A stretch of 64,000 nucleotides of DNA. Origin: Xylographa opegraphella (Eukaryota). The position numbers and the translations under genes are program-made. Where the stretch lies: the NCBI GenBank assembly GCA_022813865.1, contig JALDZX010000017.1, forward strand, positions 124,001-188,000, given 5' to 3'. The notes beneath the pieces were generated by a model. The model did not search any database and was not told the origin of the DNA. It saw only the letters and a program-made list of their open reading frames with translations. Of this stretch, positions 5,835 through 40,567 are shown in pieces (the stretch's first letter is position 1; the number at the start of each line of letters is the position of its first letter).

Positions 5835-7290
5835 CTATAGCCTCGACTTCTCGGCGATCATAGCATAACCCTTAGGATACGATTCTACATGACCGAATTA
5901 GCCAACGCGCTACCAGTCGTGCCAAAAGCTCGACGGAAAGCAGCTTACCGAGGATATCCCGATCCATCATCTGCTCGACGTTCTGGAACCCGCCGACGGT
6001 CATCAAGATGTCAAAGTCCGCCAACAAGCTCTTCATCACATGCCTGACGCCCGCCTCTCCCATGATACTGAGTCCCCACACCCACAGTCTGCCGACCCAC
6101 ACGAACTTGGCCCCCAGAGCCAAGGCCTTGCAGACGTCGCTGCCGCCTCGGATGCCGCTGTCGTACATGATGTACGTCTTGTCGCCGACGGCAGCGACGA
6201 TATTCTCCAGCGCGTCCAGCGACGCGATCGCCCCGTCGACCTGCCGGCCCGCGTGGTTGCTCACCACGATGCCGTCCACGCCGACCTCGACGGCCTTCTT
6301 CGCGTCCGCGACGCTTTGGATGCCTTTGAGGCAGAAGGGCTTGCCGCCGCTGATCTCCTTCCACGTCTTGATCAGCCACGGCATCTTGCTCCAGTCGTGG
6401 GCGCGTCCGTGCCACACATTATCGATCCACATTGCGCCGGCGCGCTCGGGCTCCTTCTTCGGGTCGATGCCTGCTGCCGCAAGGCGCTTTTGGAAGACCG
6501 GATCCGTAAGGCCCAAGTCGGCACCGATGCCACGATAGAAGGCGTAGTTGCCCTCCGCGACGTCGTCGTGGCGCCAGCCGAGCTGCCAGGTGTCGGTGGT
6601 GAGGATGCAGACGTCGAAGCCGGACTTGAAGGCACGCGTGAGCAAGCTGACGGCCAGCTCGTCATCGTGGGGCAAGTAAAGCTGGTAGAAGCGGCACCCG
6701 GCGCCGTTGGCAGTGGCGACGTCCTCGATGGCGGTGGAGCCAGCGGTGGAGAGGCAGTAGGGCAGGTTGAGCTCCTTGGCGACTTTGGCGACGGGAAGTT
6801 CGCCTAGCGGGTGGTAGATCTTATTAATACCGATGGGGGCGAAGCCGATGGGCGCGGAGACTTTGTGCCCAAAGACGGTAGTGCTGCTGGTGCGGACGTT
6901 GGTATCGACAAGCTGGCGGGGAATGATCTTATGGCGGTAGAAGGCTTGACGGTTGGCGAGGTGGGTGTAGGAGGAACCAGCGTTGGAGGATGCATAGAGC
7001 CTGGGCGTATTAGATTGCGGAGTATGATGTCGAGAGTGGTGGCATTTTACCATCCACCTTCGGTCAGCTTCTGTTTAGCAAGGTCTTCAAGCTTTCCAGG
7101 CTCTGTAATCAACGAGAGTCAGCAGCAACTCGACAGTATGCGGAAGTTATGGAGGGCAGCAATATAGGCCGGACTTACCAGTGTTGAACAGCGGTTTCTC
7201 GCCATTGTTGATTTTCCAGAAGTTCTCCCGTTGGTAAAGAGACCATTGAGGGGTGTCTCGGTTCTTGCGATTGGGATTGTTGGCGTCCAT
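5835..7290 (-). CDS. FMN-dependent alpha-hydroxy acid dehydrogenase/oxidase (lactate 2-monooxygenase-like)
   Basis: Motifs APIGFAPIG, FYQLY, LKGIQSVADA, GIVVSNHAGRQVDG and DSGIRGGSD..KALALGA. First exon MDANNPNRKNRDTPQWSLYQRENF; last exon ESYPKGYAMIAEKSRL* with stop at 5835-5837. Confidence 0.92.
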
Positions 7291-7921: not shown

Positions 7922-9463
7922 TTATTGTAGTATCTGACTGCTCCCCGAATTGCCACCAATATTGCCAACATTGCTTACAAATACAACTAAGACGGCACAG
8001 TATCTGGAAGGGCAGCAGCTTTAGCGTGGGGCTCTCTGCTTGGGATGAAGGAAACTCCTTTCAACAGAATCGAGCAGATAATGCGGGACGCTTGATGAAA
8101 ACCAGATAAACTCACCCAGCAGCAGCAGCCAAGATCTCGTGTCGTCTCGCCTTGGTGAACAGCGAAAGGATCGCGGAGAATATGAGCGTAGATACGAGAA
8201 GCACGCCTAGACAGGTGGGACTCGTTGCAGACCCATTGGTATTGGTGCTGATGTGGTAAAGGGCCCATATAGGCACTATCAGCACCACCAGAATGAAGCA
8301 GGTTATGATGAAGGTAACAAAGGCATTTATGCGGTCTCTAGTGAAGTAGTGGAGATCAGGATCCGAGGTTTTGGCTCTCGTTTCCTTGTGTCCGTTAGCT
8401 TCACCACGTCTGCTTGTTACATATACAGCAATGTAGAATTTACCTTGGAGCAGAACATACGCTGCGTAGGGATTAGCGTTTCATACCGCAAAACTCGAAT
8501 TTATGATTTTACCTGAATAGGTTTGCAATGACACATCCGTAGCATCCTCTCCACGAAAGCATCTAGGAATGCCGTCTCTCGGCCGGGTCGAAGGGTGATT
8601 AGGTCTTCCTTCTCATAAATGAATGAGGCCTCTGCTTCGAAAAGTGGCGTGTGGTTCTCCATCATGTTGATCACACTGCGATGATCGCGGTTCGCCGGCC
8701 GATTCAAGGAGACAAGTTGCTGTGCTTGTAAAAGCAATTGGCCTGGATGGTGGTAAGAAGTAGTTGCTGTGATTTGAGGGAGACAAAATGACTAGCTCAC
8801 CATACTCCAGCACTTTCTTCTCAATGGTCTCCAGAAGTTGCTTCCTAGAGATAGCATTGGCAGCCAATTCTCGTGCGTTGTCTTTTGTCCTTGACTTTAG
8901 ATACTTCCGGCGGCTCGCATCGTTCCAGTCTTGCCGGTCAACGGCACGAAGGTCAGATTCTAACGCCCGGAGCTCATCTTGCTTATTGAGGAGTAATCGG
9001 GCGTGTAGAAATCCAAAGCGTCGATAGATCATAAAGGAGTCATCACTGTCCAGGTAGCTTGCAACATATGGAAAGCCTTTCGGCGAGTCTTCCACTGTCA
9101 AAAATAAGCATTGCAAGACAGACGCTTTCTACGGCTGGTCTGCATTGGACTGACGTTTCCGTATCAGAATTTTCGACACCCGTCTTCTATTGGGTTTCCG
9201 TACTGATACCTTCCCTCGCAGTTTTGAGGGCAAAGTTCGTATGGCACTCAAAACTGCCGGCCAGAGTCAATTGATATTATCTCACATACTCTCAAAGATC
9301 AACAGGACACACCTTCACGAGGGCTATGCGTGCTGCTAACAAAGGTTGTCCCAGAGCTCAATGTTGGACTGACCGCAGTTTCCTTCTCGCACTGCGAGAG
9401 AGTCACGATTCGACCTTCTTCCATATCGCTGGCCAACCGGCTCGACTGGTCAGAAGCTGCCAT
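7922..9463 (-). CDS. DUF6594-family membrane protein, multi-exon
   Basis: VEDSPKGFPYVASYLDSDDSFMIYRRFGFLHARLLLNKQDELRALE signature. Downstream exons give about 3 hydrophobic helices (AFVTFIITCFILVVLIVPIWALY; LGVLLVSTLIFSAILSLFT; EILAAAAGYCAVLVVFVSN). ATG 9463 lies below a TATATA at ~9517; 5' exon structure is tentative. Confidence 0.8.
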
Positions 9464-10863: not shown

Positions 10864-12444
10864 TTATACAGCATCCATGCCGGACTTGAGCGTGACAAAC
10901 GCGTATAGGAAGGCATACGACGATATCACCGCAAGACCAGCTATGGAGACAAACCCGCGGGCTCCCAGCACCCCGCGTCCTTTATCGGGCAGGAATGCCA
11001 CCAGAGACACCGCTGCGGCCCACACGGCTATGAAAAGCATTGTTCCATGATACAAAATGCCATGATTGATATGCTCGTTCGGGAAATTCTCGTGAAATGC
11101 CTCGTGGACGGTCTGTTTGGAGACAAAGAGCGCATTGTGGCCGGAGGTATATCCGTGTCGCTGCCTCGAATTGAGATCGTCGGCGGGTAAGAGCAAAGTC
11201 GCCGAGGAGCCTCCAGAATTATGGTGCCTGTGTCGACGATGTGATCCAAACAGGGTAAATCTTTGTACAGCTTCTGCCATCATGAAGCGTGGCCAGGAAT
11301 GCAACCCTCCCCACATGATACGATTGACGCGCAAGTCGCGATTCTGCATAGCCTCATTGAGTGCCTTTCCCAGGATCTCAACCTGTGCCTCCGATGGCCG
11401 AGTTTCGAACATGAATTTTAGGTTGAGAAGAACCGCAGCTCCCATGTCGTGCGGACTGCTAAGGCTTCTTGCGCGTATCAAGGAGAGCCTGTCCACATCT
11501 TTCCTGATTGGTTCCAACATGATGTATCCCGCCGAATTCTTCTCTCCACGTTTACTAAGAACCGGTTTCTGGTTATTAGGGAATCCGGGTGCGCCACCAT
11601 TCTTGATCTTGTTTACTAGCTGTTGCGTTGTAAAGGGTCTGCCTTCAGCTACAAGTGCCTTCAATGCCCAGATCAGGGCGGATGTGAACGATTCAGGCCC
11701 AGGTCTTCTTGTAGTAGCTCCTGGGGCTGTAGCCGCAAGGTATTCAAAAGCCCGGGTTGGTGGAGACCGTACGTTCCCAAGATTGCCTGCATAACAACAA
11801 TCAAAAATTTCCAAAACGTCAGCTTGAGTATCTTGGAGAAGATCTTCAGCCCTATTCCATATAACTTTATTCAACTCCCCTTGAACCATACGAGGGGTGC
11901 TTTTGCCGAAGAGCTCCAAGTGTCCAGGCATATGTCCTGGCGTACCGTGACCGGCATAATAGACTATGAGAAGTCTCTTCGGCCGATCCTCGTCACTGAC
12001 GAATTTCGCAACGACGAAATTGATTTGAGATTGTGCTGTTTTCCCGGTGTGTGCTTTCAAAGTGATGTTGTGTATATCATAACAGAATATGTCTTCGAAA
12101 ACCTTCGCGAGCCTGTCAACCTCTCCTTTAACCTTCATATCGTCAAGGGCTTCGTCCCAGGATAGTAGCAGAACTGCGGCCGACTCATACAAAGACGATG
12201 CCTTGTATTGACCCTCCTCCATGACTTTGCTCCATGTAACCTGGTACGAAGAATTGAGCTGCTCGATTTCGTCTTCATAATGGACGATGGAATCATCATG
12301 AGGATGGTGCTCAACGTTGACAGGTGTCACCAGAGGAGTGCCCAGTGGAGATGGTGTGGGTACGATGGTATCGCTCGGCGGATCGCTGGAGGAAGTGCGC
12401 TTGACTTCCATGGTCTGCGTCCCTGCGGTATTCGTGGGCTCCAT
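10864..12444 (-). CDS. Caspase/metacaspase-like peptidase (clan CD, C14-type) with two C-terminal transmembrane helices, intronless
   Basis: 526-aa ORF. AVLLLSWD, catalytic His in LLIVYYAGHG, catalytic Cys in DVLEIFDCCYAG, then FEYLAA and SFTSALIWAL. C-terminal hydrophobic segments MLFIAVWAAAVSLVAFL and FVSIAGLAVISSYAFLYAFVTL. Confidence 0.85.
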   Translation of the reverse strand: MEPTNTAGTQTMEVKRTSSSDPPSDTIVPTPSPLGTPLVTPVNVEHHPHDDSIVHYEDEIEQLNSSYQVTWSKVMEEGQYKASSLYESAAVLLLSWDEALDDMKVKGEVDRLAKVFEDIFCYDIHNITLKAHTGKTAQSQINFVVAKFVSDEDRPKRLLIVYYAGHGTPGHMPGHLELFGKSTPRMVQGELNKVIWNRAEDLLQDTQADVLEIFDCCYAGNLGNVRSPPTRAFEYLAATAPGATTRRPGPESFTSALIWALKALVAEGRPFTTQQLVNKIKNGGAPGFPNNQKPVLSKRGEKNSAGYIMLEPIRKDVDRLSLIRARSLSSPHDMGAAVLLNLKFMFETRPSEAQVEILGKALNEAMQNRDLRVNRIMWGGLHSWPRFMMAEAVQRFTLFGSHRRHRHHNSGGSSATLLLPADDLNSRQRHGYTSGHNALFVSKQTVHEAFHENFPNEHINHGILYHGTMLFIAVWAAAVSLVAFLPDKGRGVLGARGFVSIAGLAVISSYAFLYAFVTLKSGMDAV

Positions 12445-14025: not shown

Positions 14026-15307
14026 ATGGACCCATATCAAGCCATTCTCTTCAAGTTAGCCGGCATGACCACAGCTCTCGTTGGGGTTATTTCCAGCCAA
14101 ATTGAGCAATCATTGCCAGCCATATCAGCTGATGAGCTCTTGGCTTTGGAAAGAGTAGATGGAAGTCCTGTCGATCTCGCGTCTGATCCCCGCAGACGCA
14201 AATGTAGGCGTCTCAGGTTTTCTACAGGCACCCCAAGATGCTAAGGCGCAGCAGGCCAAATCGGGAATCAATGTCGAGACTTCCAGGATAGGTTGAAGAC
14301 TCTGAATGATACAGTCAGCGGACAGATAAACGCTCTGAACAATTTCATACCGACAAGCACAGAAAACTTTAATGCCGCCGCCGGATCCGCTTTCAATTGC
14401 CTACAGGCCCTCACAGCTAAAATGCTGCAAGTAGCTGATGGTGATAAGAAGCTAGACCTTGAAGAACATGACCTCGGGCTTACTCTAACAAGCACGCGAG
14501 GAAGTTTCCAAGCGCTGGTCCAGACATGTCAGGATGTCTACAAGCAGTTGAGTGACCAAGCAGCAGCGCTTGCTCAGCAAGAGAGTTATAACGACCGGCT
14601 CAAGTTGGATATCCAAGCAAAGAACCAGGAAATCAAAGCGGAGCAGCCAGGTGTTCTTGACATGGTGCGTGTCGACGTCCAGACAGCAAGCCAACTGGAG
14701 TCCGATGCCAATACAACAAGGGACCAGTTATCCAGTGCTCAGAATGACGCGAACGTAAGTGCTAGCGAACCCATTATAGGTTTAAACTTATATTTCTCAG
14801 AGTATAGGAGAAAGTTTGAAGGTGTTTTTCACTGGGAGCGACAACGATCTTAACAATCGAATTCAGAGTATCGAAGATACACTTCGAAATCAGGAAGATG
14901 CTCGAAATCAAGCTAGAGAGCAGGCTATCAACCACTATCAGCTTTACGTCGGCGAGACCACTGCTATCAGTGTCCTGGACGACTTCCTTGCTCAAGTTCA
15001 GACAAACTTTAACATGGCTAGCAATGAATACGACGATCTAATGGGCAGCAGAGGTGCCGCGGACCGTACATTCGAATCGATCAAGCTTTTATGCTGGGAC
15101 ATTGAGAACTCGCAGGACAGCGCCACTCGCGATGCGTGTCTGAAGCATGTGCTGCATCTTTTGAATGGTTTGTCGCCACCTCTGGATCAAGTAGCCGCGG
15201 TGGTTGCCGCGAAACAGGAGATTGAAGCTCAGATCAAGGGTGTGCTCGGTGATGGCAAATTTGAGAAGTTGAAAACGGCCCAAGAACCTCCTGCAGTAGA
15301 CATGTAG
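14026..15307 (+). CDS. Alpha-helical coiled-coil protein of ~395 aa (candidate 'A' component of an alpha-pore-forming toxin), 3 exons
   Basis: Introns 14204-14251/14254 (GTAGGC..GCTAAG..CAG) and 14755-14800 (GTAAGT..CAG) join ORFs 14026, 14293 and 14816 in frame. Q/A/L/D-rich heptads with a short amphipathic turn, SIGESLKVFFTG. Confidence 0.75.
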
Positions 15308-16523
15308 TTTTCGTCCTCGATATTCCTCGCAATGAAAATCTGCAAAGTCATGATAAGTCGAAAACGTGTTTAAGAAAATAATCATAATCTTCATCGTTCG
15401 TAGCTCACGCCTATAATCGAACATACTGAAAATTCTAAACCTGAGCCAAAGCCCCGATGCGGTAACATGCTCTGAGGTTCATGCGATAAATTCCACGGTC
15501 TTTTCCCAAAGACATATTCTAGTCTTCTAACCTGTAGTTGCAGTGTACAATTACCCTTTCGTCGTAAATATACGCACCACCTCCTTGCACGCACGCCTCC
15601 GACTCGTAGCGAGGGACACGGGATGCAAGTAAACTGCAATTATTCTCCGATGCACTTCTTGCAGGACCTTTCCTGCATGATCTGGAATGAGATTGCATTA
15701 AGGTGGTACGGAGGCAGATTTCATGGGACCGAATACGCTGGTTGTCGAGGACTGCAGCGGGATAATCTGCAGTCCAAAGACCTTTTGAGGGTCCAGACCC
15801 CGTGACGGAGGCGCCACAGAATACGAGCTATCTTAATGCTATTCAAGGTTAATCAGTCCTTATTCAGGTCGGCCGTACCCCGCTGTCAGCCAGCCTCACC
15901 CGCCCTGAGCCGCCGTACGAAGGTACTTCAGCTGTACTCCGTAGGTTCGATGTCACTAACGCCGATTGCGTCTTGCGGCCACAGTGCTGAGGTGGTACGT
16001 CCAGACTAGTTGACTCACGTTGGGATGTTCGCGATCCTTCTCTGCTTTGACAATTGTCGGCTATCACATTCGAGACCTCTTGGTGGCTGGCTGAGTTCCA
16101 TCCACGACAGAGCTCGAGGCGCTGTGAACCCGGCAAGTCTTGCAACACTGACGGACTTCTCAACTCCTATCCTATGGCTTTATCAGGATTTTCAATATCC
16201 TACATGACCACTGTCTGTTTCAGTCCTTTGGGGCAATCGCATGGTTCAATGAAAGCCATGCTCCAAGCTATTGTCCCGCGTCAATGTGATCCACCTTGTT
16301 CTGGATGTGCGCAATACCATTAGCATGTTTTTTAGCATCTCTTGAAACGGTTCGGAAGGTCTTGATCTTGCCGATCAAGTCTGCTGATAATGCTTGCTCG
16401 CATTGTATATAACTCGTCCGCCCCGCTGAACTAAAGGCCTCGTAACGTCAGGATTTGAGCCTCCATTGATAGCTCCTCAGAAAACAACTCAGCTCTCAAG
16501 TCGATCTTGTTATACAAGCAATC

Positions 16524-19226
16524 ATGTCAGAATCCCCAGCTGATAAGCTTGCAGCGGTGCAAGATGCGCAAGACCAGCGCCTCAAGGACAAGTACAATGG
16601 CAAAGCCGGCAAAAAGTTCGTGACCGATGTTAAAGAGTCACTCCTTTTCCAGTCCAACTGGTCAGACCTGTTATCAGCCGCTCCAATTGCCTTAGAGCTA
16701 TTGGGCGCATGCTTTGTTGCGGCGTCTGCTCCAGATGCAGACTCGATTCTACTGACCGAAGCGGTACCAAAGGAGGGATGGAAGTGCCTTAAGTAGATCT
16801 TCGAGCCTAAGCTGTGTGCCCAATGTACTGAGGCCATCTAGTAATGTTCGAGACCCTTCTCTCCGAGCATGTCTTATCCAGATCACCAGCCAGGGACGAA
16901 TTACATTTGGTACAGCTGGAGTGAATATGTCAAAGATTGCTGAGACATCCAGCTCGATAAATGAAGTGGTTAGTGTTACTACCGAAACTGTTTGGCAATT
17001 ATTAAATCATTTTTCAGGTTTCCAATGTTATCCGAGCCGTTCAAGCTATTTACCAGCCAGGCATGAAAGATTATCTTGACAATTTTCTTCAACAGCTCCG
17101 TGACCAAGCAAAAGACTGTTGCGATTATTCCGACGAGATTGAAAAGGCATTCGATACCTGGTTGACAATGGTTGCAGAGCTTCATACAGCTAGCGAGCAA
17201 AAGTCTGGGGCCGTTAGTGCAGAGACATCTACCAATCTCTCCGCACAAATTGCTGCGCAAATTCAGCAGCAAGGTGCGTCGGAGATGCTAGACAGCGCTA
17301 AACCGGCAGCAGATCGTGCCAAAAAGTCCCTAGATATCGCCGAGGATAATTTCAAACAAGCTAATGAAGCAATACCAAGTCGTTAGTTCTTCTTTACTGA
17401 TTTCTTGAACACCCACTAATTGGGACAAGCTCTCGTTACTATGGGTATGCAGATTTTGCAGTCAGCTGTAAGCGCTGGTCCAAAATTGATCGCGGCGGCT
17501 CTACCGGCTGTCATGATGGCAGCAGACCCAATGACAGCGCTTGGGCCAGCGCTTGGAGCCATGGGCAAGTCTTTCGCTGTTGGAGATGCACAAGGTGCAC
17601 CGACTGTGGCACAAGGCGCAGCAGCTTTACTGTCAGGGCCGCAGGTACTGCCGACTGGAAACGATGATCCTGGTTATCAGGCAGCATTGCATACTGAGCC
17701 TATCATGACAAGCCTTTTCTCTTACTTGACCGAAGGAAAGAACAAGAGTATTGACTGGGAGAAGTTTCACGACAAGGCAGCTGGTGGTGATGGCAAGACG
17801 CCAGTGGGTGTCACTGCGATCGAGACTATGTTAACTATGGCAAAGAAAAATGGAGGGTTGTCGAACCAGCCGCCTTCCGTTGATGTTTCGCAGGCTATAG
17901 ATTCCTCACTTTCGGTAAACTTGATAGCAATTATAATCGATCAATACTGATATCTTTAGGTCCTTACGGAGATTGGAAATGCGATCAAACAGCAAAGTCA
18001 GCTTACCTCGGATGCCGTCGGAGAAGACACAATCAAAGGCTGGCAAACCAAAATCAAAGAAGCTGAAACAACTGTCACAAGGTTGAGCACTACGCTTTCG
18101 ACCGGTCCAGCAGCTTCAAGCAGTGTGCCTACTATAGGTGATATGAGAGCACCAGCGCCCAGCGATGACTCAAGTGGTAAGACGGTATTCAAAGAAAGTT
18201 TGAGTTGTTTGAGCTAAAGTATACAGCTTGTGCCTCTCTGGATATGGCCAACAAACGTCTTGCGACAGATCAACAAGCCTTGAACAATTCGCAGAAAAAC
18301 TATGAAACGGCCATGGAACATCAAACTCAGGCAATTAGTGATTTAGCAGTTGCGCGTGGCAAGCTTGCGGAGCTCAAAGCTACAGCAGATACTCTTGTAA
18401 TTGAAACATCGATCCGGAAACAAGAGCTTTTGTGCTAACACGTTGTAGACGCATGTTAATGCCGTCTTGATTAGTTGTATCAATCTCCTTGTGCAATTAA
18501 AGGTGCAGGTCGGCAAGCTTAAGCAATTCTTTGCTGCTATTCATGCAATGATTGATGTCGTCGTTCGAACCAGAGTCAACAGTTTCGATAAGGATATTAC
18601 CACTCTCGAAAATGTCAGTTTAAAGTCTGGCGGACTCACGATCAACAACTTGACTCAGGAGGCAAGTCGCTCTTTCGTATGACATAACGCATTGATTCTA
18701 ACATCAAGCAAGACAATATATACTTCTACACTACAATTAAAAGCCTATTTTGACCTCCTGCATGATATCGCAGGGATGTATACACAGATACATACCCAGC
18801 ACATCACCCAGGGAGTTGACCTGGTCGACATGTTGAGTCGAGAAAGCAGCCCAGCTGAAGTGACTCAAAGGCAACAAGACCTTGAGAAGTTTGCCGATAA
18901 TGCTGGAAGCGCAATCAAAGATCTCTGCACAAAGGTATAGCCGCATACCATCGAGACATTCATCCCGAATCCGAATAATGCCTCAGTTACTGACTGATTC
19001 CTGCCATCAGCAACAACGTCAGGTGACGGAAGGCCTACAGCAGCGCATTACGAATATCGCGCAGAGCACCCAGATGTTGGAGAGCGTAGGAGTTACAATG
19101 GACCCGAAGTCACTGGCTGCAGTGCAAGCTGGCGCGGCCAGCAACACGCAAGCCGTGCAGGCTGGATTCGACGAACACAAGGCGCTCAAGAAGGATCTAT
19201 CGCAAGACTTTCTGAGTGTTCCATAA
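16524..19226 (+). CDS. 760-aa helical-bundle protein with central hydrophobic Ala/Gly segment (candidate ClyA/Hbl-like toxin), 9 exons
   Basis: Exons 16524-16792, 16842-16968, 17018-17381, 17430-17914, 17960-18176, 18227-18396, 18449-18661, 18713-18934 and 19011-19226 splice in frame (2283 nt). Motif NWSDLLSAAPIALELLGACFVAAS, long coiled coils, and hydrophobic LVTMGMQILQSAVSAGPKLIAAALPAVMMAADPMTALGPALGAMG. Confidence 0.85.
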
Positions 19227-20256: not shown

Positions 20257-23200
20257 TCACATACCCAAGAAATCCTCTGCTCCACCAACATCATCCATGA
20301 CGTTCGCCATGTGCAGATCCATCTCCATTCCTGCCTTGATCGCGTCCACCATCTGGGCCTGCCCGGTCGCAGTCACTCCCGTTCCATTTTCCATATCGAG
20401 CAGCATTTCGTTGCCATCGACAGCCACTGCTGCATCCATGGCTGCATTTACATCAAGATCCGCTTCGATTTCACCGGGGGTACTACTCCCTCCTTGAGAC
20501 TGCACTCTCCGATGCAATCTCACAATTATTTCTGCTCTTGCTGCATCGTGCTTACTTAGGGCGAATGCACCGTTGTAAGCGGACTGAAGAGCATGCCGCA
20601 GTGAAAGCCTCTCGCGTCCGTCATTCGCAGTAGGAGCACATATCAGCGCAGTTACGATATCGAGTACCACATCCGCCGCTTCGTTTGCAGCATGCTTCAA
20701 TGTCATGTCAAGCAAAGACCCAAGCACGACTTTAGCGCCGAGCATAGTCGCCGCTGTCAGCAATAGCCGGTGGGTATAATTCGGCGGGGCTGCATTCGAC
20801 ACGCCGGTCGTGCTCCAATTGACAAGGGCCATGATAGAGTTGTATAATGACGAGAGTATGCTGCCGCCTGGCGTGCCACACCAGCTCTCAAGCTCAGAAG
20901 CCGATGTGGCAGTGTTGCGTGGGTGCCGGATTCGGCTTTTGAGAGTCGTAAGCAGAGACTCGATGTCTTGACGTTTAGGATGGAGCTTTTGAAGTGCGAC
21001 GAGAGCTCTGTCAAGAGGCACGGTGGTGACTGCAAGAACTGCCTCATGCAGAGAAAGTGCGTCAGATGATAGGGATGGTGGATGGACCAAGAGGGATAAA
21101 GCAGGCAAGAGTATCGAGAGCGATGTAGTAGAAGTAGATAAAGGAGTGAGCAGGCGACGAGTTGACCAAGAAAGACCTGCTATCAGGGATGGAAGCAGGA
21201 ATGGCTCGAGCAAATCTAAGGCGCCGTGATATTAGTAGCGAATTCAAAGCATAGTCCGCGGGTTTACGAACACACAGGAATATAAAATGCTTTCTCCTAT
21301 TGCGATACTTACATTCAAAACCGCCTTTCAATGTCTCCAGACCAAGTACTCCGGCTTCACAAGCCTTTAGACTTTGATCAAACAGGGTTGCGACCAGTAA
21401 ATAGAATTCCTGCGGACCACATGTGGATATTAGCTCATCGCTAATACCTTCTGTCTCAAAGAGACCCTTGATCCAGCCGCCGAGGTGCATCTTCTCTTTG
21501 TCCGAAAGCTCGCTAGGGTCTCTTGAGATACATCCTCTTCGAATGTACTTTAATATGAAGGAGTCAGCATAGCTGATGCCCAATTCGCTGTCCGGCAAAT
21601 TGAAATGTTGACGAAACACTAAGACAAGTAGGAGAATACTACCAAATTCGTCGTATACAGGTTGGTGTTCCCCTATCATATAGTTAGCAGAATGCAAGAA
21701 ATATATATATTTAATGCTTACCTTGATCCTCATGAACCTGCCAATGGTCTAGGAGCTCACAAAGCGGCTGGAGGATAGTACTTGGTTGGCAGAAGATCAT
21801 CAAGACGTTCAGTGCCCGAGACTTGCGAGAGAGTGCATTGCAAATAATTTTGAGAGTCATGGTATCTTTGTTGTTACATAAGCTCTGCAAGATCTGTCAA
21901 TTTGGTGTTAGTCGAGAGCTTTCGATATTGTCACCTCCGATCTTTATTCATATCTATTTATGGATAATGGTTTGAGGGTGACAAACCTCGACCAAAGCTC
22001 GGGCTATTTCAGCGGCGTTGCCTTCCATATTCTCTAATTCCCAAACGAACTCCTCTATTTTGACAGGATTTGCAGTACATTGTGCCACAAGATCGGTTTT
22101 TTGATATTTGCCACCTTCTGGTAGACTTTGCATTGGAACGTCTCCAAGAATAGACTCGATCGACTGTTCTGGTATGAGACCATATAAAGCACACGAGAAG
22201 AGGAATTCGGCACGGGCTTCGGAGAGCATACCACTGCTGTCGAGCAAGTCAAATGACTGGGTGGAGTAAGGATCAGCCGGGGGATCCATTCGACCTAGAC
22301 CTTCCGCTATGCAGGATTCAATGTTGTAAGGTGGAAATATCATTGTAGAATATGATTCGAGCAGTACAGGTAGTTTGTTAGTCAAAAACGAACGATAAAT
22401 AAAGATGCCACCGTTCGACTCCGCTCGATTGATAGCATTAGCAAGAACATCAAACGTCGCCGTAATGAGATCAGTAACCAGAGTAGGTATGCCACCCTGC
22501 TGCCGTCAGCGATAACCGGGATATCTCTTAATCCCATCGACCTACACTATAGCGGACATTAAGATATTTGAATAGTGTTACGTCGTTGAAAAGAGGTCTT
22601 CCAATAAGCTACCATTGATCAGAGAAACAATGGACATGACACGAATACAACATACCATGGCATTAATGTATATGTACAGAGCTGCTCTAGTGATAATCAG
22701 TGGATTGTCTAGTACATTCTCTTGATAAGCTAGAGAGTCTAAGTCCACCCCTTCAACCACCGCATTGCCGAGTACGTTGACAGACTCATCATGGAGACCG
22801 GATTGCTTCTGCAGAATGTCTAACGCCTGACCAAGTTGTGCATTAGATGGCGATATCAGAACAGTGAACGGTGGCAAGTATCGGCTGAACCAGGTCTTGA
22901 GATCTAGAAATCATCAGATTGGTGAAGGACATAGATATATTGCCAGTAATAGACTGCAAAGATACCTTTCGGAGGGCCCCCATCTTTGCTTGTCAGAAGG
23001 CCAACCTTTGAGAGCTCGTTAATGTATGCGCCAACGTATTGGCCAAGAGCATTTCCAATTTCAAGGAACGGTCCTTCAAGAGGAATAAGATGCTCCAAAG
23101 TTTGGGTGAATGTCGACAGAAGAGAAATCAATGGCTTTGCAACATGAAGAGTGTCTATCCGCTCAGAGGCTGCGGTAACAATAGCTCTTCGTTGGATCAT

Positions 23201-23563: not shown

Positions 23564-24540
23564 AATTGGCTACTCTGAATATTGCCAAACTCGTCTGTCA
23601 AATGCATATCTCACATATTCTCGGATGACAACGACCCTCAGCTAGGTAGATATTCGCACTCAGTTCTTGCCCAGTAGGAAATAGTCTGCAGCTCCTTCGC
23701 TAATGTGCAGCAATAGGAAAAGAATTCAATCTCAGCTTAGGTATATATGCAATTGCTGATTATCACCTATCGATCAGTGAAGCACTTCCATTTATATAGG
23801 ATTGAAGAAGCTTATCGATGTAGCATCGCAGCGTCCTCTTCTGTTAGATAATGTAGGAAATTGGACGCCCAACACGGGACGTGCTCTCGGAGAATTGGTT
23901 AGCGTGCTTAGTAATATGCGCTTATGCTGATGTATACGCGAGTTCGCACGATAATAGAAGAGATACGGAGAATTTAACAAGCAAACGTGGCATTATTCTA
24001 CCTATAGAGCGTAGTCCAGATTCGATGATCTACAATTATTTTTGGCCCAACAATGGTCGATCAGGTTCAATTCAATTTTGGAGTTTGGTAATGTTTCGAC
24101 ATGGCTAAGCATTGTGAAAAAGTTCAGGACTCGTCGGAAACAATGACCTTACTTCATTAGATTTTCTTAGGAATAAGGATCCATAGTCACGTTAAAGATC
24201 TTCATTGATTACTGAAAGGCAAGGAGACAGCGCGACTGACATGTCCGAGTGTATCAACTGCCGGCAATGAAATCTAAACGCACATGAAGTACGATATGGA
24301 CTACCTTAGGGCTTCGGCTGCCTGTTCACGAAAGCGGGAGATAGCGTTCTGTGGGCCCATAACTCCGAGGATCGGCTACATTAACCGTTGTTACATCATA
24401 GCCCAAGATGCTCGTATTTACGAAGGCGATCCGAAATAAAAGCAACAATTCTCTACTTTCACGACCTTTGGAGATCATCATATACACCTTGTACAAAGTA
24501 CAAACAATATCTATATATATATAAGACATCTAGATTCACG

Positions 24541-25684
24541 ATGGTACCCAAATTGCCTCAGCGTCAGCTTGGAAAGAACGGCCCAATGGTTACTGCCCTT
24601 GGGTTTGGTGCCATGGGCCTGTCCGCTTTTTATGGCAAGCCTGAAGCCGATGAAGTGCGCTTCGAGGTCATAGATCGGGCATATGAGCTTGGTGAAACCA
24701 ATTGGGACACCGCGGACATATACATGGACAACGAGGATCTTATTGGAAAATGGTTCAAACGAACTGGCAAGCGGGACGAAGTATGTCTCCAGTTGACGAT
24801 GGGCCTCAAGGAATCCTTTTCATTGACCTTTTACCTTCTCAGATCTTTCTGGCAACCAAATTCGCAAACCATGTGAAACCGGACGGAAGCAGAGAAGTAA
24901 GGAACGAGCCTGAATATGTCAAGCAAGCATGTGCGAAGAGTCTGAAGCGACTGGGCATTTCCACAATAGATCTTTATTACTGTCACAGACTTAGCGGCGA
25001 GGTACCGATAGAGGACATGGTTGGGGCCATGGCAGAGCTGGTCAAGTAAGTTCAAATTGGTTGAGCTGCTCTAGATATTTATAACTGACTGGGACATTTA
25101 GGGAAGGTAAGGTCAAATATCTTGGCCTCAGCGAATGCTCTTCGGAGTCGCTCCGTCGCGCTTATAAGGTGCACCCAATTCAGGCTGTCCAGATCGAGTA
25201 CAGTCCTTTCACGATGGACATTGAAGATCCTAAAATTGGTTTGATGGAGACTTGTAAGGAACTCGGGGTTGCGATCGTTGCATATAGTCCGCTGGGCCGC
25301 GGCTTTATCACAGGCCAGTACAAGTCGCCGGATGATTTTGAAGATGGGGACTTCAGAAAAATGGCCCCTAGGTTCTCGGCAGAGAACTTCCCCAAAAATC
25401 TTAAGCTCGTGGACCGCATTGGAGAGTTGGCGAAGAAGAAGGGTATCACTGCGGGCCAATTGACTCTTGCATGGCTCCTAAAACAAGACGAGCTGGTAAT
25501 TCCCATCCCGGGCACAAAAAAGATCAAGTATCTTGAAGAAAACCTTGGCGCCCTGGACGTTAAATTGAGCGAAGAAGAAAATACAGAAATAAGAAAGGCC
25601 GTCGAGAGCGCAGAAATACATGGGGACAGATATCCTACGCCAATGATGAAGATTTTGTTTGGTGATACTCCACCAGCAGCATGA
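24541..25684 (+). CDS. Aldo-keto reductase (YakC/AKR13-like), 3 exons
   Basis: [16 protein letters not shown] (catalytic Asp/Tyr), [33 protein letters not shown] and [15 protein letters not shown]. Introns at ~24781-24842 and ~25046-25100. Confidence 0.93.
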
Positions 25685-27639: not shown

Positions 27640-28031
27640 AGATGTATAGTCTCGCCCCCACTAAGCCATGTTCTCTTTCAGGTCAAAGTAGCTGAATCAT
27701 GATTGCCATTTATGTGTCGTGCTGATTGTGACGAAGCTATTCTCGCAAGACAATTAGCATATCGAAGCTTTGTCCTAGTCCTAGGATAGTGGGGATGCAG
27801 TGGTCGGGATTTTTGCATCTCCCAAGACGTGCAGCACGACAATCATGGACTAACGGCAATAACAAGGAAAAGATGAGCCCGAGGCCGGTAGATCTGAGCT
27901 CACTTCGTCGTTTGCGGACATACTAGACGTTCTTCAAGATGCAACAATCGATGAAGTTGCATGTGACAGTCGAATAGTTGCCGACCTGACTTGACAATCG
28001 CCAACCACGATTCCTGCCATTGCTCCAGAAA

Positions 28032-30370
28032 ATGACCGCCAGACACTCTCGGCGACTTATACGTCCCCTGATTTACACCGCCGCCACCGCTACCATTGGC
28101 AGTAGCGTCCTATACTACTCTTATCGACCTCGCAATATCCCTGGGTCCGACCCTGCTGCGGTACCGCCAAAATTTGGCCCCGATGGAACTATTGCACCTC
28201 CAAGATTTCCGAAGGTGAGAAGCCGGGCGGAGCAAATTGCAGAGCTAAAGAGGAGCGGTGCAACAAGCCATACCTCTGGAGATACCGAGAGACCCTTTAG
28301 CAGCCTTTTCCGAAGTGGAAGTAGCATACACAACGGCACAACGGAAGATGATGAACCATACGATCTGTTGATAATCGGAGGTGGAGCTACGGGCTCCGGC
28401 ATTGCTCTTGATGCAGCCACAAGGGGATTGAGAGTTGCCTGCATAGAGAGGGATGATTTCAGCAGTGGCACGAGCAGCAAGAGCACAAAACTAGTCCACG
28501 GAGGCGTCAGATATCTTGAAAAAGCCGTATGGGAACTGGACTACAACCAGTTAGTTTCACCGCCGGCTGGCTTCTGATCGATATGCGCTTATCATGCTCA
28601 GATACAAGCTTGTCAAGGAAGCTCTACGGGAGCGGAAGTATTTCCTCGACACGGCACCGCATCTTTCGAGCTGGCTACCTATCATGCTTCCAATCCAGAA
28701 ATGGTGGCAAGCGCCGTATTTCTGGATGGGAACCAAGGCCTATGATTTCTTGGCAGGATCCGAAGGGATCGAAAGCTCTTACTTTCTTACTAAAAGTAAA
28801 GCATTAGAAGCATTTCCAATGCTGAAAAGAAACAATGTGGTGGGAGCGCTAGTATACTACGGTATTCAATTTACCACGAGCACACAGGAGAACATGCACT
28901 GACTATATTAGATGGGGCTCACAACGATTCGCGAATGAACGTTTCAATAGCCATGACTGCTGCCCTCTATGGTGCAACCGTTGTCAACCATATGGAGATC
29001 GTCGGATTGGAAAAGGACGCCACCGGAAAGCTGTGCGGCGCTCGAGTAAAGGATCTTGTTCAGGAAAAGGATGGTAAGAAAGCGGAAGAATTCACAATCA
29101 AAGCAAAGGGTATCATCAATGCGACTGGGCCCTTCACGGATTCCATACGTAAAATGGATGACCAAACAGTGGATGAGATTGTTGCTCCTAGTTCTGGGGT
29201 TCATATAATTTTACCGGGCTACTACAGTCCTGCAAAGATGGGCCTCATTGACCCAAAGACCTCAGATGGCCGAGTAATATTTTTTCTCCCCTGGCAAGGA
29301 AACACTATAGCAGGTACTACGGACGCCCCAACAGAGATTTCCCAGAACCCTGTTGCAGGCGAGGAGGAAATTAATTGGATCTTGTCGGAGATTAGAGGCT
29401 ACCTTGCACCAGATATCAACGTCAGGAGAGGTGACGTTCTTGCCGCCTGGTCAGGTATACGACCATTGGTGCGTGATCCGAAGGCAAAGAACACTGAATC
29501 TCTGGTGCGGAACCATTTGATCACTATCTCCGACTCAGGCTTGCTCACTTGTGCCGGTGGAAAATGGACCACGTATCGCCAAATGGCCGAAGAGGCAGTA
29601 GATGAAGCTATTCCTCAATATGGACTTCGGACGGGTCCAGTCAGACACGTTCCACATATCAGTGGCACTGAGATGGTGGATGATGCTGCTCCGCTCGATG
29701 GGACCTGCCAAACACACCAAGTTAGGCTAATTGGAGCTCATGGCTATTCGAAGACTCTTTTCATCAACCTCATCCAGCATTTTGGGATCGAAACAGATGT
29801 TGCTAAGCATTTAACTGAGTCCTATGGAGATCGAGCGTGGACAGTCGCAGCTCTGTCTGCACCCACGGAGAAGCGATTTCCAGTTCGAGGGATCAGAATA
29901 TCACCACTATACCCTTTCATCGATGGTGAGGTCCGCTATGCTGTCCGACACGAGTATGCTCAGACTGCAGTGGATGTCCTCGCGAGAAGAACAAGATTAG
30001 CATTCTTAAATGCACAAGCGGCGCTGGAGGCATTACCGACGGTCATCGATCTGATGGCGGAAGAGCTGAAATGGGATACCAAGCGGAAGAATATAGAGTG
30101 GCGAGAGTCTGTAAAATTCCTCGCTTCGATGGGATTAGCAAAAAGCAAGCTCAATGTTACAAGGAGAGATGTGGAGAGTGGTAAAGCAGCGGAGTACGAT
30201 GAGCATGAAAGAAAACTGTACTCAAGACATGGTCGGTCATTGTCCAAGCGGATGTCGTGCCCTTTGCTAACATGACACCAGATCGACCAGCTGATACAAT
30301 AGAAAGCGATTCGAAACTCGAATCTGGGGAGAACCCAATGATTGGAATGGATTCACCGGCTAACAAATAG
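28032..30370 (+). CDS. GUT2: Mitochondrial FAD-dependent glycerol-3-phosphate dehydrogenase, 4 exons
   Basis: [61 protein letters not shown] and [12 protein letters not shown]. Last exon ends ..MDSPANK* at 30370. Confidence 0.95.
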
Positions 30371-35299: not shown

Positions 35300-36060
35300 A
35301 ACATCTTGACGATCTCAAACCGTCACGTCCAGTTTCACTGGGATCTTGAATTCTTACTTTTAATACGTTTAACTGCCTTGCTAGGATCTTCTAAGATATC
35401 AACCTTGGGTACCAATCTTGACGAACACCAATTGTCACGTCCATTTCCCTCGATTCCACGTTCATTGCCCGTGCTACACATCATAGCCTTCGCAAAGAAC
35501 ATTGGAGATATCAGCCTTCCTCACGAACCTTGATACATCAACATCCGCTACGAGCTTTGACGAGCAGTAGTTGTCACATCCATTTTCACTGAATCCAGAT
35601 TCACCACCTTTGGCCTTTGCTACGCGTCATTGCCTCCCTAGGAACCTTACAATATCAGCTCTTGTCACGAATCTAGAGCATATCAGCCTTGGCTACCAGT
35701 CTTGACGAGTATCAATTGTCGCGTCCATCCTCCCTGATTTCAGATTCACCACCTTTGGCCTTTGCTACGCATCATTGCCTTTGCCAAATTCTTGAAGACA
35801 TTTACCTCCTTTACGAGCCTGCACGATATCAACATTCGCAATACGAATTTGACAACCACATCGTCACGTTCAGTCTCAACACAATTGCCTCCGCCACGAA
35901 TCTTGACTCTCACAACAAGCTTTCCTACACCTCTTAACGGATACGAATTGTCACATTCCATCCGATTATATCCAACATCATTGGCTTTCCTACATATCCA
36001 GACGATATCAACATTCAATACGAATATTGACAATCTTAAATCGTCACGTTCATCTTAATT
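35300..36060. repeat. Degenerate ~140-147-bp tandem repeat array with dyad core TTGAC(G/A)A-N5-7-YYGTCRC
   Basis: Cores at 35306, 35418, 35557, 35702, 35849 and 36027. The identical 30-mer cagattcaccacctttggcctttgctacgc occurs at 35596 and 35741. Confidence 0.8.
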
Positions 36061-36147
36061 GAACCCAGCATTGTTGCTTCGTTACGCATCATTTCCTCCG
36101 CTACCGAATCTCGCCTTATGTCGATCATACCACAGAGCTCCGTAAAT

Positions 36148-36772
36148 ATGAATATGAACAGCTCTCCTGCGCCTCCCACCCACCTCGCAGTACACGGCTC
36201 TGCCGTCGTGGCTGACGGTGGAGGTCAGTATTAACCTTTCTCGCTCGCAATACCTGTTCTCATACACTTCAACAGAACTCTCCCTGTCCGCGTCCCTATC
36301 CGCCTCATCCCCCTACTTTGTGGAGGGTTACGCCGGGGACCTTTGGGTCCCCAGGCAACCGGGTAAGTCCAATTACCATTTCCATCTGGCGTAAAGCGCT
36401 TCTCTAACGTGACCCAACAGCCTATCCGACCCTCGAACCAGGCAACAGGGCATATAATGCCACAGGTATATCTCCGTGCCTCATCCCCTCGTCGATCTCT
36501 AACACGAACTCAAAGTCCGAGCCTGCCTTACGGCCACGGCTGTCCCTCCTCTCCCTCACTCTCCTCCTCTCCCTCACCCTCCTCCTCCGCCGCCAACCCC
36601 GCCACCACCAAGACCTCCTCCAGCGCTGCCCGCCCCAGCACGCTTCATCTGCGGCCTCTGTAGCTCTGGCTACACGCGAAAAGTGGACGTCAAGCGTCAC
36701 TTCCAGACGGTGTGCGTGCCGAGGGGAAACCCCTCGGGACTGCAGTGGGATTCGAACCCCAGCTGCAGGTGA
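36148..36772 (+). CDS. 154-aa proline-rich protein with C-terminal C2HC-type zinc finger, 4 exons (not in ORF track)
   Basis: Exons 36148-36223, 36276-36362, 36421-36465 and 36516-36772. Three phase-1 GT-AG introns (GTCAGT, GTAAGT, GTATAT; CTAAC branches in introns 2 and 3). Ends PPPPPTPPPPRPPPALPAPARFICGLCSSGYTRKVDVKRHFQTVCVPRGNPSGLQWDSNPSCR*. Confidence 0.7.
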
Positions 36773-36991
36773 CGCCCGGGGGGTGGAGAAGGGGGAAGGG
36801 GGGGTAGTATAGCTTGCGTTTGGGCGTTTTGCGCGTTTTTTTTTTTTTTTGGGGATTTCTTGATTTTTTTGTTTTCATGGCACATGTGTGTTGAGGGGCG
36901 TGTCCATTGTGGGGCCACTATATGTGGCCGCGCAGAGGGCGTGTTCTTGAGGATCCAAGGGAGTTGCAATGAGCATTAGAGGGGAAGGATG

Positions 36992-37026
36992 NNNNNNNNN
37001 NNNNNNNNNNNNNNNNNNNNNNNNNN
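36992..37026. other. Assembly gap (N run)
   Basis: Run of n characters. Confidence 1.
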
Positions 37027-40550: not shown

Positions 40551-40567
40551 CCACCCACCCAACCCGC

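What the first reader, a model, noticed from the sequence alone, without database searches (positions are those of the whole stretch)
14026..19226. Tandem helical pair resembling a two-component ClyA-family alpha-pore-forming toxin in a fungus
Seen: two co-oriented genes (~395 and 760 aa), with no obvious signal peptide on the larger one. Both are almost entirely heptad helices. The larger has a ~65-aa Ala/Gly/Met hydrophobic segment (17430-17640) between two long coiled coils; the smaller has a short amphipathic tip between coiled coils. Established: helix bundle plus central hydrophobic hairpin, encoded as tandem A/B genes, is the layout of XaxAB/YaxAB and Hbl/Nhe toxins. From memory, and unverified, the NWxxxLxxAPxxxxxLG motif also occurs in uncharacterised animal proteins. 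Toxin identity is inference.
Basis: inference. Interest (0 to 1): 0.75.

Follow-up and report, generated by a model that had tools for sequence, protein, structure and literature searches.

The report
Unnamed ClyA-like helical protein family
A lichen fungus gene belongs to a large, unnamed protein family of fungi and animals whose predicted shape most resembles bacterial pore-forming toxins, but the neighbouring gene is an unrelated orphan, so a two-part toxin is not supported.

Summary
Two co-oriented, intron-bearing genes lie at 14026-15307 (394 aa) and 16524-19226 (736 aa as deposited, 760 aa with a skipped conserved exon part restored). Database names place the window in Xylographa opegraphella. 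Both proteins are about 76-78% helix. The larger has no signal-like N-terminus and carries a 70-residue Ala/Gly/Met/Leu segment at 17430-17635.

The larger gene belongs to a big unnamed family: 973 cluster representatives at E<=1e-3, ~700-800 aa, no Pfam or NCBIfam family. It occurs in fungi and in animals (shark, gecko, python, abalone, brachiopod), all sharing the NW..LL..AP.....LG motif.

The smaller gene is a heptad-rich orphan. No homologue was found anywhere, it shows no similarity to the larger gene, and it has no usable fold model, so the A/B pairing has no support. Pore formation remains inference.

The parts
14026..15307 (+). Gene 1 (deposited as hypothetical protein MMC26_003183, P0006, 394 aa). 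Exons 14026-14203, 14255-14754 and 14801-15307. It is a heptad-rich all-helical orphan with a hydrophobic N-terminal stretch (residues 4-26).
   Evidence: The exons reproduce P0006 exactly. The introns are 51 nt (GTAGGC..CAG) and 46 nt (GTAAGT..CAG). Codon score is positive in frame. Heptad test: 5 of 5 helices. No homologue was found. No Pfam or NCBIfam family matched.
16524..19226 (+). Gene 2 (deposited as hypothetical protein MMC26_003184, P0001, 736 aa). Exons 16524-16792, 16842-16968, 17018-17381, 17430-17914, 17960-18176, 18227-18396, 18449-18676 (or -18661), 18800-18934 as deposited (18713-18934 as supported by homologues), and 19011-19226.
   Evidence: The exons reproduce P0001 exactly. 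The N-terminus aligns from residue 1 with homologues. The family has 973 representatives at E<=1e-3. AlphaFold2 model: pLDDT 72.6, pTM 0.58.
16656..16706 (+). Family signature NW..LL..AP.....LG (residues 45-61). It opens a buried-type hydrophobic helix (46-67 in the model) and is the most conserved hydrophobic element of the family.
   Evidence: W46 is present in 47 of 53 aligned members, L50 in 50, P54 in 52 and G61 in 51. The best 19-residue Kyte-Doolittle window is >=1.2 in 52 of 53 members and >=1.6 in 33 of 53. The motif is present in the named animal members. The helix has pLDDT ~84-86.
17430..17635 (+). Central Ala/Gly/Met/Leu-rich hydrophobic segment (residues ~253-322), directly after the third long helix. 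It is the candidate membrane-active 'head'.
   Evidence: Composition is A18 L8 G8 P6 M6, with 4 charged residues of 70. Two or three helices are predicted at low confidence; pLDDT is <50 over 252-311. Hydrophobicity >=1.2 is kept in only 16 of 53 family members.
17603..18100 (+). Helical insert domain (residues ~312-462), interrupted by intron 17915-17959. It has no counterpart in ~350-aa ClyA-type proteins.
   Evidence: Helices at 312-321, 334-354, 379-394, 401-426 and 437-462, with pLDDT mostly 72-96. Separate structural matches to small helical bundles only (rows covering 314-464).
18101..18166 (+). Low-confidence Pro/Ser/Ala-rich linker (residues 463-484) between the insert and the C-terminal long helices.
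   Evidence: pLDDT is <50 over 468-482 and no secondary structure is predicted. P472 is kept in 42 of 53 members.
18662..18799 (+). Region where the deposited gene model is probably wrong. A likely 51-nt GC-AG intron (18662-18712) is followed by 29 conserved codons (18713-18799) that the deposited model splices out.
   Evidence: The skipped residues align with conserved residues of P0002-P0005. Other introns here are 45-52 nt (one is 76), whereas the deposited intron is 123 nt. The alternative GT donor would give a 36-nt intron. No RNA data exist to decide.

Best explanation
These are two independent genes.

Gene 2 encodes a member of a large, unnamed and uncharacterised family found in fungi and animals. 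Its members are ~700-800 aa, almost all-helical proteins without an N-terminal signal peptide.

The predicted core (about residues 40-600) is a long antiparallel helical bundle built in this order:
- a conserved hydrophobic helix (the NW..LL..AP.....LG motif);
- three 45-48-residue helices;
- a hydrophobic Ala/Gly/Met/Leu segment;
- a ~150-residue helical insert;
- two 54-55-residue return helices.

This layout is most like protomers of the ClyA superfamily of alpha-pore-forming toxins, especially those with long hydrophobic helical heads (AhlB, SmhB, HblL1).

Most likely mechanism (inferred, not shown): the protein is made as a soluble bundle that hides its hydrophobic helices. On a trigger it opens and inserts them into a membrane, possibly oligomerising into a pore, and it works as a single chain without a dedicated partner.

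Gene 1 is a lineage-restricted coiled-coil orphan that merely lies upstream.

What is shown: gene structures, family size and range, motif conservation, the hydrophobic segments, and the ranking of structural matches. What is inferred: homology to ClyA-type toxins, membrane insertion and any lytic activity.
For: Family.
- A profile search against 1.84 billion representatives gave 973 hits at E<=1e-3, 493 at <=1e-10 and 133 at <=1e-30, mostly 690-820 aa.
- Of 28 hits looked up, 16 are fungal, 5 animal and 7 without an organism name. All are 'hypothetical' or 'uncharacterized'.

Structure (model: pLDDT 72.6, bundle helices mostly 70-96).
- Many alignments begin at residues ~34-50 and end at ~590-650. 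This corresponds to the N-motif helix through the second return helix.

Position and length of the hydrophobic segment.
- It lies after the third long helix and is 70 residues long.
- AhlB has 63 and NheB 54 hydrophobic residues at the equivalent place (PMC6602965, passages).
- The membrane-active region of ClyA-like toxins lies between the bundle helices alpha4 and alpha5 (PMC6162564, sections 1-5 read).

Weak independent lead. The only Pfam-named row shown among the 30 protein-language-model look-alike hits of P0001 is a bacterial 'putative enterotoxin' cluster in which 30% of members carry Bacillus_HBL (rank 20, score 0.83).
Against: - Four of the 14 top rows have rmsd 34-41 A, so they are not rigid-body matches.
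- Foldseek found nothing at E<=1e-3. Its best hit was PrgA at 2.3e-3, and MakA came only at rank 38 with E 0.25.
- No sequence or profile link was found. Among the 25 Pfam families shown for the 53 members there is no HBL or HlyE.
- NCBIfam gave one MakA hit in 53 members (17 bits against a cutoff of 320). Generic coiled-coil models such as SMC and PgrA hit more members with better E-values.
- PDB sequence profiles gave nothing relevant.
- The protein is twice the size of ClyA-type proteins.
- The central segment reaches hydrophobicity >=1.2 in only 16 of 53 members and >=1.6 in 3.
- The model was built from the deposited protein, which lacks 29 residues. That gap lies outside the matched core.
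- There is no functional or expression data of any kind.
Confidence: 0.4

Rival explanations
1. Gene 2's family is a non-lytic helical-bundle protein. It could be a structural or scaffolding coiled-coil protein, or an exchangeable lipid-surface binder of the apolipoprotein or perilipin kind. In this reading the hydrophobic helices are simply the core of the bundle or a monotopic membrane or lipid-droplet anchor. The likeness to ClyA-type toxins would then reflect only that both are long antiparallel bundles.
For: - Foldseek is not significant.
- There is no profile link to toxin families.
- No signal peptide was seen in the 53 aligned members.
- The family is shared by fungi and animals, with the named members split by one branch. 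This fits an old cellular function.
- One member has a weak Apolipoprotein A1/A4/E hit (E 3e-4, 21 bits against a cutoff of 90).
- The N-motif helix is confidently modelled inside the fold.
Against: - ClyA-family entries, rather than BAR, spectrin, vinculin or apolipoprotein-type bundles, fill the top of both structural rankings. They do not do so for the control helical model.
- The window protein's 70-residue, almost uncharged Ala/Gly/Met/Leu segment after the third helix is unusual for a scaffold.
- Members differ widely (17-40% identity to the window protein). Some species carry two copies (Podospora didyma, Kalaharituber pfeilii). This looks more like an effector or immune family than a housekeeping one.
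Confidence: 0.3
2. One reading: genes 1 and 2 are the A and B subunits of a XaxAB/YaxAB- or Hbl/Nhe-like multi-component alpha-pore-forming toxin and act together.
For: - The genes are tandem and co-oriented, 1.2 kb apart.
- Both proteins are helical.
- Gene 1 has the size (394 aa) of ClyA-type subunits.
- The best row with a ClyA-type Pfam family among gene 1's language-model look-alikes is the same 'putative enterotoxin' cluster in which 30% of members carry Bacillus_HBL (rank 13, score 0.88). The query's recognition value is low, so this is only a lead.
- Gene 2 resembles B-type components.
Against: - Gene 1 was found only in this genome. The word-indexed search of 5.8 billion proteins (295-2000 aa) returned itself alone among 693 candidates.
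- Its 90% cluster has one member.
- No prokaryotic relative was found.
- Gene 2 has an orthologue in X. trunciseda that is 71-75% identical, and hundreds of relatives elsewhere. The pair therefore cannot be conserved at any detectable level.
- There is no profile similarity between the two genes (probability 0.1-0.2%).
- Gene 1's model is unusable (pLDDT 46), and its structural matches hold 0 ClyA-family rows of 50.
- Gene 1 is regular heptad coiled coil in 5 of 5 helices and has no internal hydrophobic head.
- In fungi, adjacency alone says little.
- Neighbours of family members in other genomes could not be inspected with these tools.
Confidence: 0.07
3. Gene 2 is a latent cell-death executioner switched on by proteolysis, by the logic of gasdermins. 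The caspase-like peptidase encoded 4 kb upstream (10864-12444, minus strand) would cut the disordered linker (residues 463-484) and free the membrane-active N-terminal part.
For: - A Peptidase_C14 caspase-domain protein lies nearby (E 8.5e-6, 26 bits against a cutoff of 21.4).
- A disordered Pro/Ser-rich linker separates the N-terminal part of gene 2, which holds both hydrophobic elements, from its C-terminal helices.
- Fungal gasdermin-like proteins are controlled by proteolytic cleavage (PMC8851545; only the search listing and the start of the abstract were seen).
Against: - Gene 1 lies between the peptidase gene and gene 2, and the peptidase is on the other strand.
- There is no evidence that family members elsewhere sit near proteases; this could not be tested.
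- The structural matches use helices from both sides of the linker as one bundle (model ranges ~40-600). The C-terminal part therefore looks like part of the core and not a detachable inhibitor.
- No cleavage motif was identified.
Confidence: 0.07

Closest known systems
B-type components of tripartite ClyA-family toxins (AhlB, SmhB, NheB, HblL1)
   Same: - Long antiparallel helical bundle with a ~55-65-residue hydrophobic, Ala/Gly-containing head placed after the third long helix.
- Hydrophobic stretch lengths are 63 residues (AhlB) and 54 (NheB), against 70 here (PMC6602965 passages).
   Different: - About twice as long (736-765 aa against ~340-370).
- Extra N-terminal region with the NW..AP..LG helix, a 150-residue helical insert and ~140 extra C-terminal residues.
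- No sequence or profile similarity.
- Eukaryotic, with introns, and shared by fungi and animals.
- No A or C partner genes were identified.
- Several of the best matches are non-rigid (rmsd 34-41 A).
XaxAB / YaxAB / PaxAB binary toxins
   Same: - Two adjacent co-oriented genes for helical proteins.
- The absence of a signal peptide in Xax/Yax subunits is recalled, not checked here.
   Different: - In these toxins both subunits share the five-helix-bundle frame, and both pore structures are built from a tightly interacting A-B pair (PMC6162564, sections 2 and 4).
- Here the smaller gene has no homologue, no usable fold model and no internal hydrophobic foot.
Single-component ClyA (HlyE) and Cry6Aa
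   Same: - One chain carries both the bundle and the membrane-active element and needs no partner. This is how gene 2 most plausibly works.
   Different: - ClyA uses a short beta-tongue plus an amphipathic N-terminal helix (PMC6162564, PMC6602965). Here the hydrophobic elements are a conserved helix near the N-terminus and a long central helical segment.
- The size, the insert domain and the lack of sequence similarity also differ.
Hemolysin E-like (hl) genes of Drosophila ananassae
   Same: A eukaryotic, intron-bearing gene family with ClyA-type structure, proposed to act in immunity (PMC11731912; abstract and passages read).
   Different: - Those genes have sequence-detectable hemolysin E domains and signal peptides.
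- They have a scattered distribution attributed to horizontal transfer from bacteria.
- The present family has none of these properties and is spread over fungi and animals.

Membership tests
ClyA superfamily of alpha-pore-forming toxins (ClyA/HlyE, Cry6Aa, Hbl/Nhe, Ahl/Smh/Mak, XaxAB/YaxAB) | Common five-helix-bundle frame (alpha1, alpha2, alpha3, alpha6, alpha7), as defined in PMC6162564 section 2 | tested here: inconclusive
ClyA superfamily of alpha-pore-forming toxins | Membrane-active hydrophobic element in the region between the bundle helices (alpha4-alpha5 region) | tested here: met
   The window protein has a 70-residue segment (253-322) after the third long helix, with 4 charged residues. 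Caveat: only 16 of 53 family members reach hydrophobicity 1.2 there. Membrane activity itself was not tested.
Pfam Bacillus_HBL (PF05791), Pfam HlyE family, NCBIfam MakA and Xax models (sequence-defined families) | Profile match above the curated cutoff | tested here: not met
   No such family appears for P0001 or for the exon pieces. None is among the 25 Pfam families listed for the 53 members at E<=1. One of 53 members has a MakA hit of 17.3 bits against a cutoff of 320. PDB sequence profiles gave none. The protein is therefore not filed in any of these sequence families.
ClyA superfamily of alpha-pore-forming toxins | Single ~300-400-residue protomer | tested here: not met
   The protein is 736 aa as deposited and 760-765 aa with the restored exon part. 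Family members are mostly 690-820 aa. Extra N-terminal, insert and C-terminal parts are present. No internal duplication was found that would make it two protomers in one chain.
ClyA superfamily of alpha-pore-forming toxins | Soluble-to-oligomeric-pore transition; lysis of membranes | not testable with these tools
   This needs purified protein, liposomes or bilayers, and electron microscopy.
XaxAB/YaxAB-type binary (or Hbl/Nhe-type tripartite) toxin loci | Partner subunit genes that co-occur with each other across genomes | tested here: not met
   Gene 1 was found in no other genome: itself only among 693 candidates, a cluster of one, and no prokaryotic relative. The gene 2 family has 973 representatives and an orthologue in X. 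trunciseda that is 71-75% identical. Limits: the gene 1 search was word-indexed and restricted to proteins of 295-2000 aa, and neighbours in other fungal genomes could not be read.
XaxAB/YaxAB-type binary toxin loci | Both subunits have the ClyA-type fold | tested here: inconclusive
   The gene 1 single-sequence model has pLDDT 46.3 and pTM 0.26, so its matches (0 ClyA-family of 50 rows) carry no weight either way. There is no profile similarity to gene 2, but true A and B subunits are also very dissimilar in sequence.

The most novel reading that the evidence does not exclude
Gene 2 represents an old, double-sized eukaryotic branch of the ClyA alpha-pore-forming superfamily. It is present in fungi and in animals up to sharks and reptiles, is made without a signal peptide, and acts from inside the cell as an endogenous single-chain pore-former. 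It would work in cell death, immunity or allorecognition, much as gasdermins and MLKL/HeLo proteins do. That would add a third, alpha-helical ClyA-type executioner class to eukaryotes.
Probability: 0.25. Interest if true: 0.85.

Novelty: new variant of a known kind. Interest (0 to 1): 0.6.

Why it matters
ClyA-type alpha-pore-formers are treated as bacterial toxins. The one eukaryotic case found in my searches (the Drosophila hemolysin E-like genes) is described as a horizontal acquisition, and its authors write that the domain was 'heretofore only identified in prokaryotes' (PMC11731912 abstract).

Here a family of about a thousand cluster representatives has no Pfam or NCBIfam model and no named member. 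It occurs in many fungi and in vertebrate and invertebrate animals, and its predicted fold resembles those toxins most.

If the likeness is real, eukaryotes have their own ancient ClyA-type membrane-inserting proteins. Their cellular role, whether cell death, immunity or membrane repair or remodelling, is completely open.

If the likeness is only a common helical arrangement, the family still deserves a name and a first experiment. It is large, conserved and wholly uncharacterised.

The finding also corrects the local picture. The neighbouring gene is an orphan and not a toxin partner, and the deposited gene model probably drops 29 conserved residues.

Tried and rejected
- Whole-genome search. 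No genome is held for this window.
- Sequence families. Pfam on the exon pieces, on 17 proteins and on all 53 alignment members gave only sub-threshold coiled-coil noise. NCBIfam on 11 proteins and on the 53 members gave the same.
- The single MakA hit (Lingula protein, E 0.0018, 17 bits) was considered and rejected as noise. Only 1 of 53 members has it, and SMC- and PgrA-type models score better.
- PDB by sequence gave nothing relevant.
- Foldseek against the PDB gave no match at E<=1e-3.
- Gene 1 against gene 2 profiles gave no similarity.
- Internal duplication of gene 2 (N half against C half) gave 29-31 aligned columns at probability 28-57%. This is not convincing.
- Related loci. The metagenome scan returned one 2,230-base contig with no flanks, closest to the Fusarium member. 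Prokaryote genome scans with the gene 2 alignment and with gene 1 returned nothing. One call failed because the 53-row alignment had no sufficiently conserved stretch.
- No paralogue of either gene lies elsewhere in the window.
- Expression. No RNA holder is listed. Laying three runs showed only the probable source assembly covering the stretch. Splicing and expression therefore remain unverified.
- Complex prediction of gene 2 residues 41-736 with gene 1 residues 95-394 returned 'no answer' (score 0.00, controls not run). This is no evidence either way.
- The gene 1 AlphaFold2 single-sequence model has pLDDT 46. Its structure search was used only as a control for how a helical model behaves in the tool.
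- Earlier findings of this scan held nothing relevant.
- Literature. Six full-text searches covered ClyA/YaxAB with fungi, ClyA-like eukaryotic homologues, PF05791/HBL-like, six locus or accession names of family members, Cry6Aa/ClyA fungal structural homologues, and alpha-pore-forming fungal cell death. None found a paper on this family. Supplementary files were not searched.
- The idea that genes 1 and 2 are one mis-split gene was rejected. Gene 1 ends in a stop, the 1.2-kb spacer scores non-coding, and gene 2's N-terminus aligns from residue 1 with homologues.

Full report
**What is there.**

Names attached to identical database proteins place the window in Xylographa opegraphella, a lichen-forming Lecanoromycete.

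The stated interval holds two + strand genes with short fungal introns.
- Gene 1: exons 14026-14203, 14255-14754 and 14801-15307. They reproduce the deposited 394-aa protein P0006 exactly.
- Gene 2: nine exons from 16524 to 19226. They reproduce the deposited 736-aa protein P0001 exactly.

All 11 exon pieces tested have positive codon-usage scores in the proposed frame (+0.15 to +0.32 per codon). Two neighbouring non-coding kilobases are negative in all frames.

The deposited model of gene 2 probably errs at one place.
- It removes a 123-nt intron.
- A 51-nt GC-AG intron (18662-18712) fits better. It matches the local intron sizes of 45-52 nt.
- It also keeps 29 codons that align with conserved residues in four homologues, giving 760 aa.
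- No RNA data could be found to settle this.

**The observation.**

- Gene 2 begins with ~40 polar residues and no signal-like stretch, as do all 53 aligned relatives (judged by eye).
- It is 76% helical in the AlphaFold2 model.
- Residues 253-322 (17430-17635) form an Ala/Gly/Met/Leu-rich stretch with only 4 charged residues in 70.

Two qualifications apply.
- On its C-terminal side the stretch is followed by a ~150-residue helical insert and a disordered linker before the next long helices.
- An uninterrupted heptad pattern is clear in only 2 of the 7 long helices of gene 2, whereas it is clear in 5 of 5 of gene 1.

The 'amphipathic tip' of gene 1 could not be verified. Its only hydrophobic stretch is at residues 4-26.

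**Gene 2 belongs to a large unnamed family.**

- Word-indexed searches found relatives at 71-75% identity (Xylographa trunciseda). They also found relatives at 38-40% identity (Fusarium proliferatum, a Trizodia genome bin, a Dothideomycete).
- A profile of these five, scored against 1.84 billion cluster representatives, gave 973 hits at E<=1e-3, 493 at <=1e-10 and 133 at <=1e-30. Most are 690-820 aa and matched end to end.
- Of 28 hits looked up, 16 are fungal (Ascomycota of several classes and two Basidiomycota). Five are animal (Lingula, Scyliorhinus, Haliotis, Paroedura, Liasis). Every name is 'hypothetical' or 'uncharacterized', or an automatic coiled-coil label.
- Protein-language-model look-alikes agree: Ascomycota clusters and a 121-member Chordata cluster at 0.98.
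W46, L50, P54 and G61 are kept in 47-52 of 53 aligned members, and the motif is present in the animal proteins.
- This motif opens the one hydrophobic helix that the whole family keeps (>=1.2 in 52 of 53 members). The central segment is that hydrophobic in only 16 of 53.
- A FastTree tree of 62 chosen full-length rows separates the 5 named animals from the 19 named fungi by one branch (SH-like support 99). One long-branch fungal row (Cladorrhinum) sits at the base of the animal side.
- In that tree the window protein lies in a fungal subclade that does not follow the species tree.
- No Pfam or NCBIfam family reaches its cutoff for any member tested.
- Six literature searches found nothing on the family.

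**Fold.**

The model was made with the 53-sequence alignment and has mean pLDDT 72.6 and pTM 0.58. Its elements, in order:
- three short N-terminal helices, including the motif helix 46-67;
- long helices 97-141, 148-195 and 203-250;
- the low-confidence hydrophobic segment;
- the insert (312-462) and a linker;
- long helices 485-538, 543-597, 638-690 and 697-733.

Foldseek found nothing significant.

The Foldseek-independent aligner, run against 48,161 PDB representatives, put ClyA-family toxins in 14 of its first 24 rows.
- These were HblB, Cry6Aa, AhlB, HblL1, XaxA, NheA, MakA, AhlC, SmhA, PaxB, MakE, MakB, ClyA and YaxB.

Many alignments run from about residue 34-50 to about 590-650. The matched core is therefore the motif helix, the three long helices and the first two return helices. 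The C-terminal ~140 residues, which include the place where the deposited model lacks 29 residues, are extra.

Against this:
- The very top row is a designed protein.
- Four of the top rows are non-rigid matches (rmsd 34-41 A).
- I could not inspect helix connectivity.

The published frame of the superfamily is a five-helix bundle with the membrane-active part between alpha4 and alpha5 (PMC6162564, sections 1-5). The 63- and 54-residue hydrophobic stretches of AhlB and NheB sit at that place (PMC6602965, passages). Both fit the position and length of the segment seen here.

**Gene 1 and the two-component idea.**

- Gene 1 looks like a real gene. Its only database match, however, is itself, its cluster has one member, and no prokaryotic relative was found.
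- The closely related X. trunciseda has a clear gene 2 orthologue, but no gene 1 relative was returned. The limits are a word-indexed search and proteins of 295-2000 aa only.
- Profile comparison of gene 1 with the gene 2 family gives nothing.
- Its single-sequence model is unusable (pLDDT 46).
- It is regular heptad coiled coil without an internal hydrophobic element.
- The best row with a ClyA-type Pfam family among its language-model look-alikes is an HBL-containing cluster at 0.88, at a low recognition value. This is a lead only.

Neighbours of family members in other genomes could not be read with the tools at hand. Absence of a conserved partner is therefore inferred from the absence of homologues, not from synteny.

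**Reading.**

The best-supported account is that gene 2 is a single-chain member of an old fungal-and-animal family with a ClyA-like bundle that shields hydrophobic helices. It most likely switches between a soluble and a membrane-inserted, perhaps pore-forming, state.
- The fold likeness rests on one predicted model and borderline scores.
- The mechanism is inference.
- I put this account at 0.4.

The main rival is that the family is a non-lytic bundle protein whose likeness to the toxins is generic (0.3).

The two-component toxin as proposed gets 0.07.

A caspase-like peptidase gene lies 4 kb upstream of gene 2. This suggests a protease-activated executioner scheme, but nothing beyond proximity supports it (0.07).

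**Novelty.**

Nothing in the searched literature or the family libraries names this family. If the ClyA likeness is real, the family is a new, double-sized eukaryotic variant of a known kind of membrane-inserting protein. If it is not, the family remains a large uncharacterised one that is worth a first experiment.

Noticed in passing
window 10864-12444 (- strand): A single-ORF 526-aa protein with a caspase domain (Pfam Peptidase_C14, E 8.5e-6, 26.1 bits against a cutoff of 21.4). It has His- and Cys-containing motifs of the catalytic type and two hydrophobic stretches at its C-terminus. It lies 1.6 kb upstream of gene 1 in divergent orientation.
   Followed up: no
window 18662-18799: The deposited gene model of gene 2 splices out 29 codons that are conserved in homologues. 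A 51-nt GC-AG intron would keep them and give 760 aa. The X. trunciseda model (P0002) seems to retain the corresponding intron as ~15 extra residues.
   Followed up: partly
proteins P0003 (Fusarium proliferatum) and P0004 (Trizodia sp. genome bin); locus L001: These two members are 73% identical, although the organisms are distantly related Pezizomycotina and the window protein is only 38-40% identical to both. A metagenome contig (L001) encodes a protein 83-86% identical to the Fusarium one. Within this fungal subclade the gene tree does not follow the species tree. Gene transfer, old paralogy or contamination of the genome bin were not told apart.
   Followed up: no
proteins P0020 and P0157 (Kalaharituber pfeilii); P0011 and P0008 (Podospora didyma): Some fungi carry two family members. 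The two Kalaharituber copies are near-identical and lie on one contig with accession numbers seven apart. The two Podospora copies are divergent.
   Followed up: no
Some members may therefore be secreted.
   Followed up: no
protein P0067 (Drechslerella dactyloides, 1540 aa): This protein is a family member in its residues ~500-800, is twice the usual length, and is named a C2H2-type domain-containing protein by UniRef. It may be a fused gene model or a real fusion.
   Followed up: no
window ~36000-54000: A block with G+C 0.54-0.59, against 0.45-0.52 in most of the rest of the window. Its content was not examined.
   Followed up: no
window 5872-7074 (-), 8613-9128 (-), 20257-22505 (-), 24385-25684 (+), 27990-30275 (+): Ordinary neighbours by Pfam: an FMN-dependent dehydrogenase, a DUF6594 protein, Mediator subunit Med5 in several exon pieces, an aldo/keto reductase and an FAD-dependent glycerol-3-phosphate-oxidase-like protein. 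None is toxin- or secretion-related.
   Followed up: no
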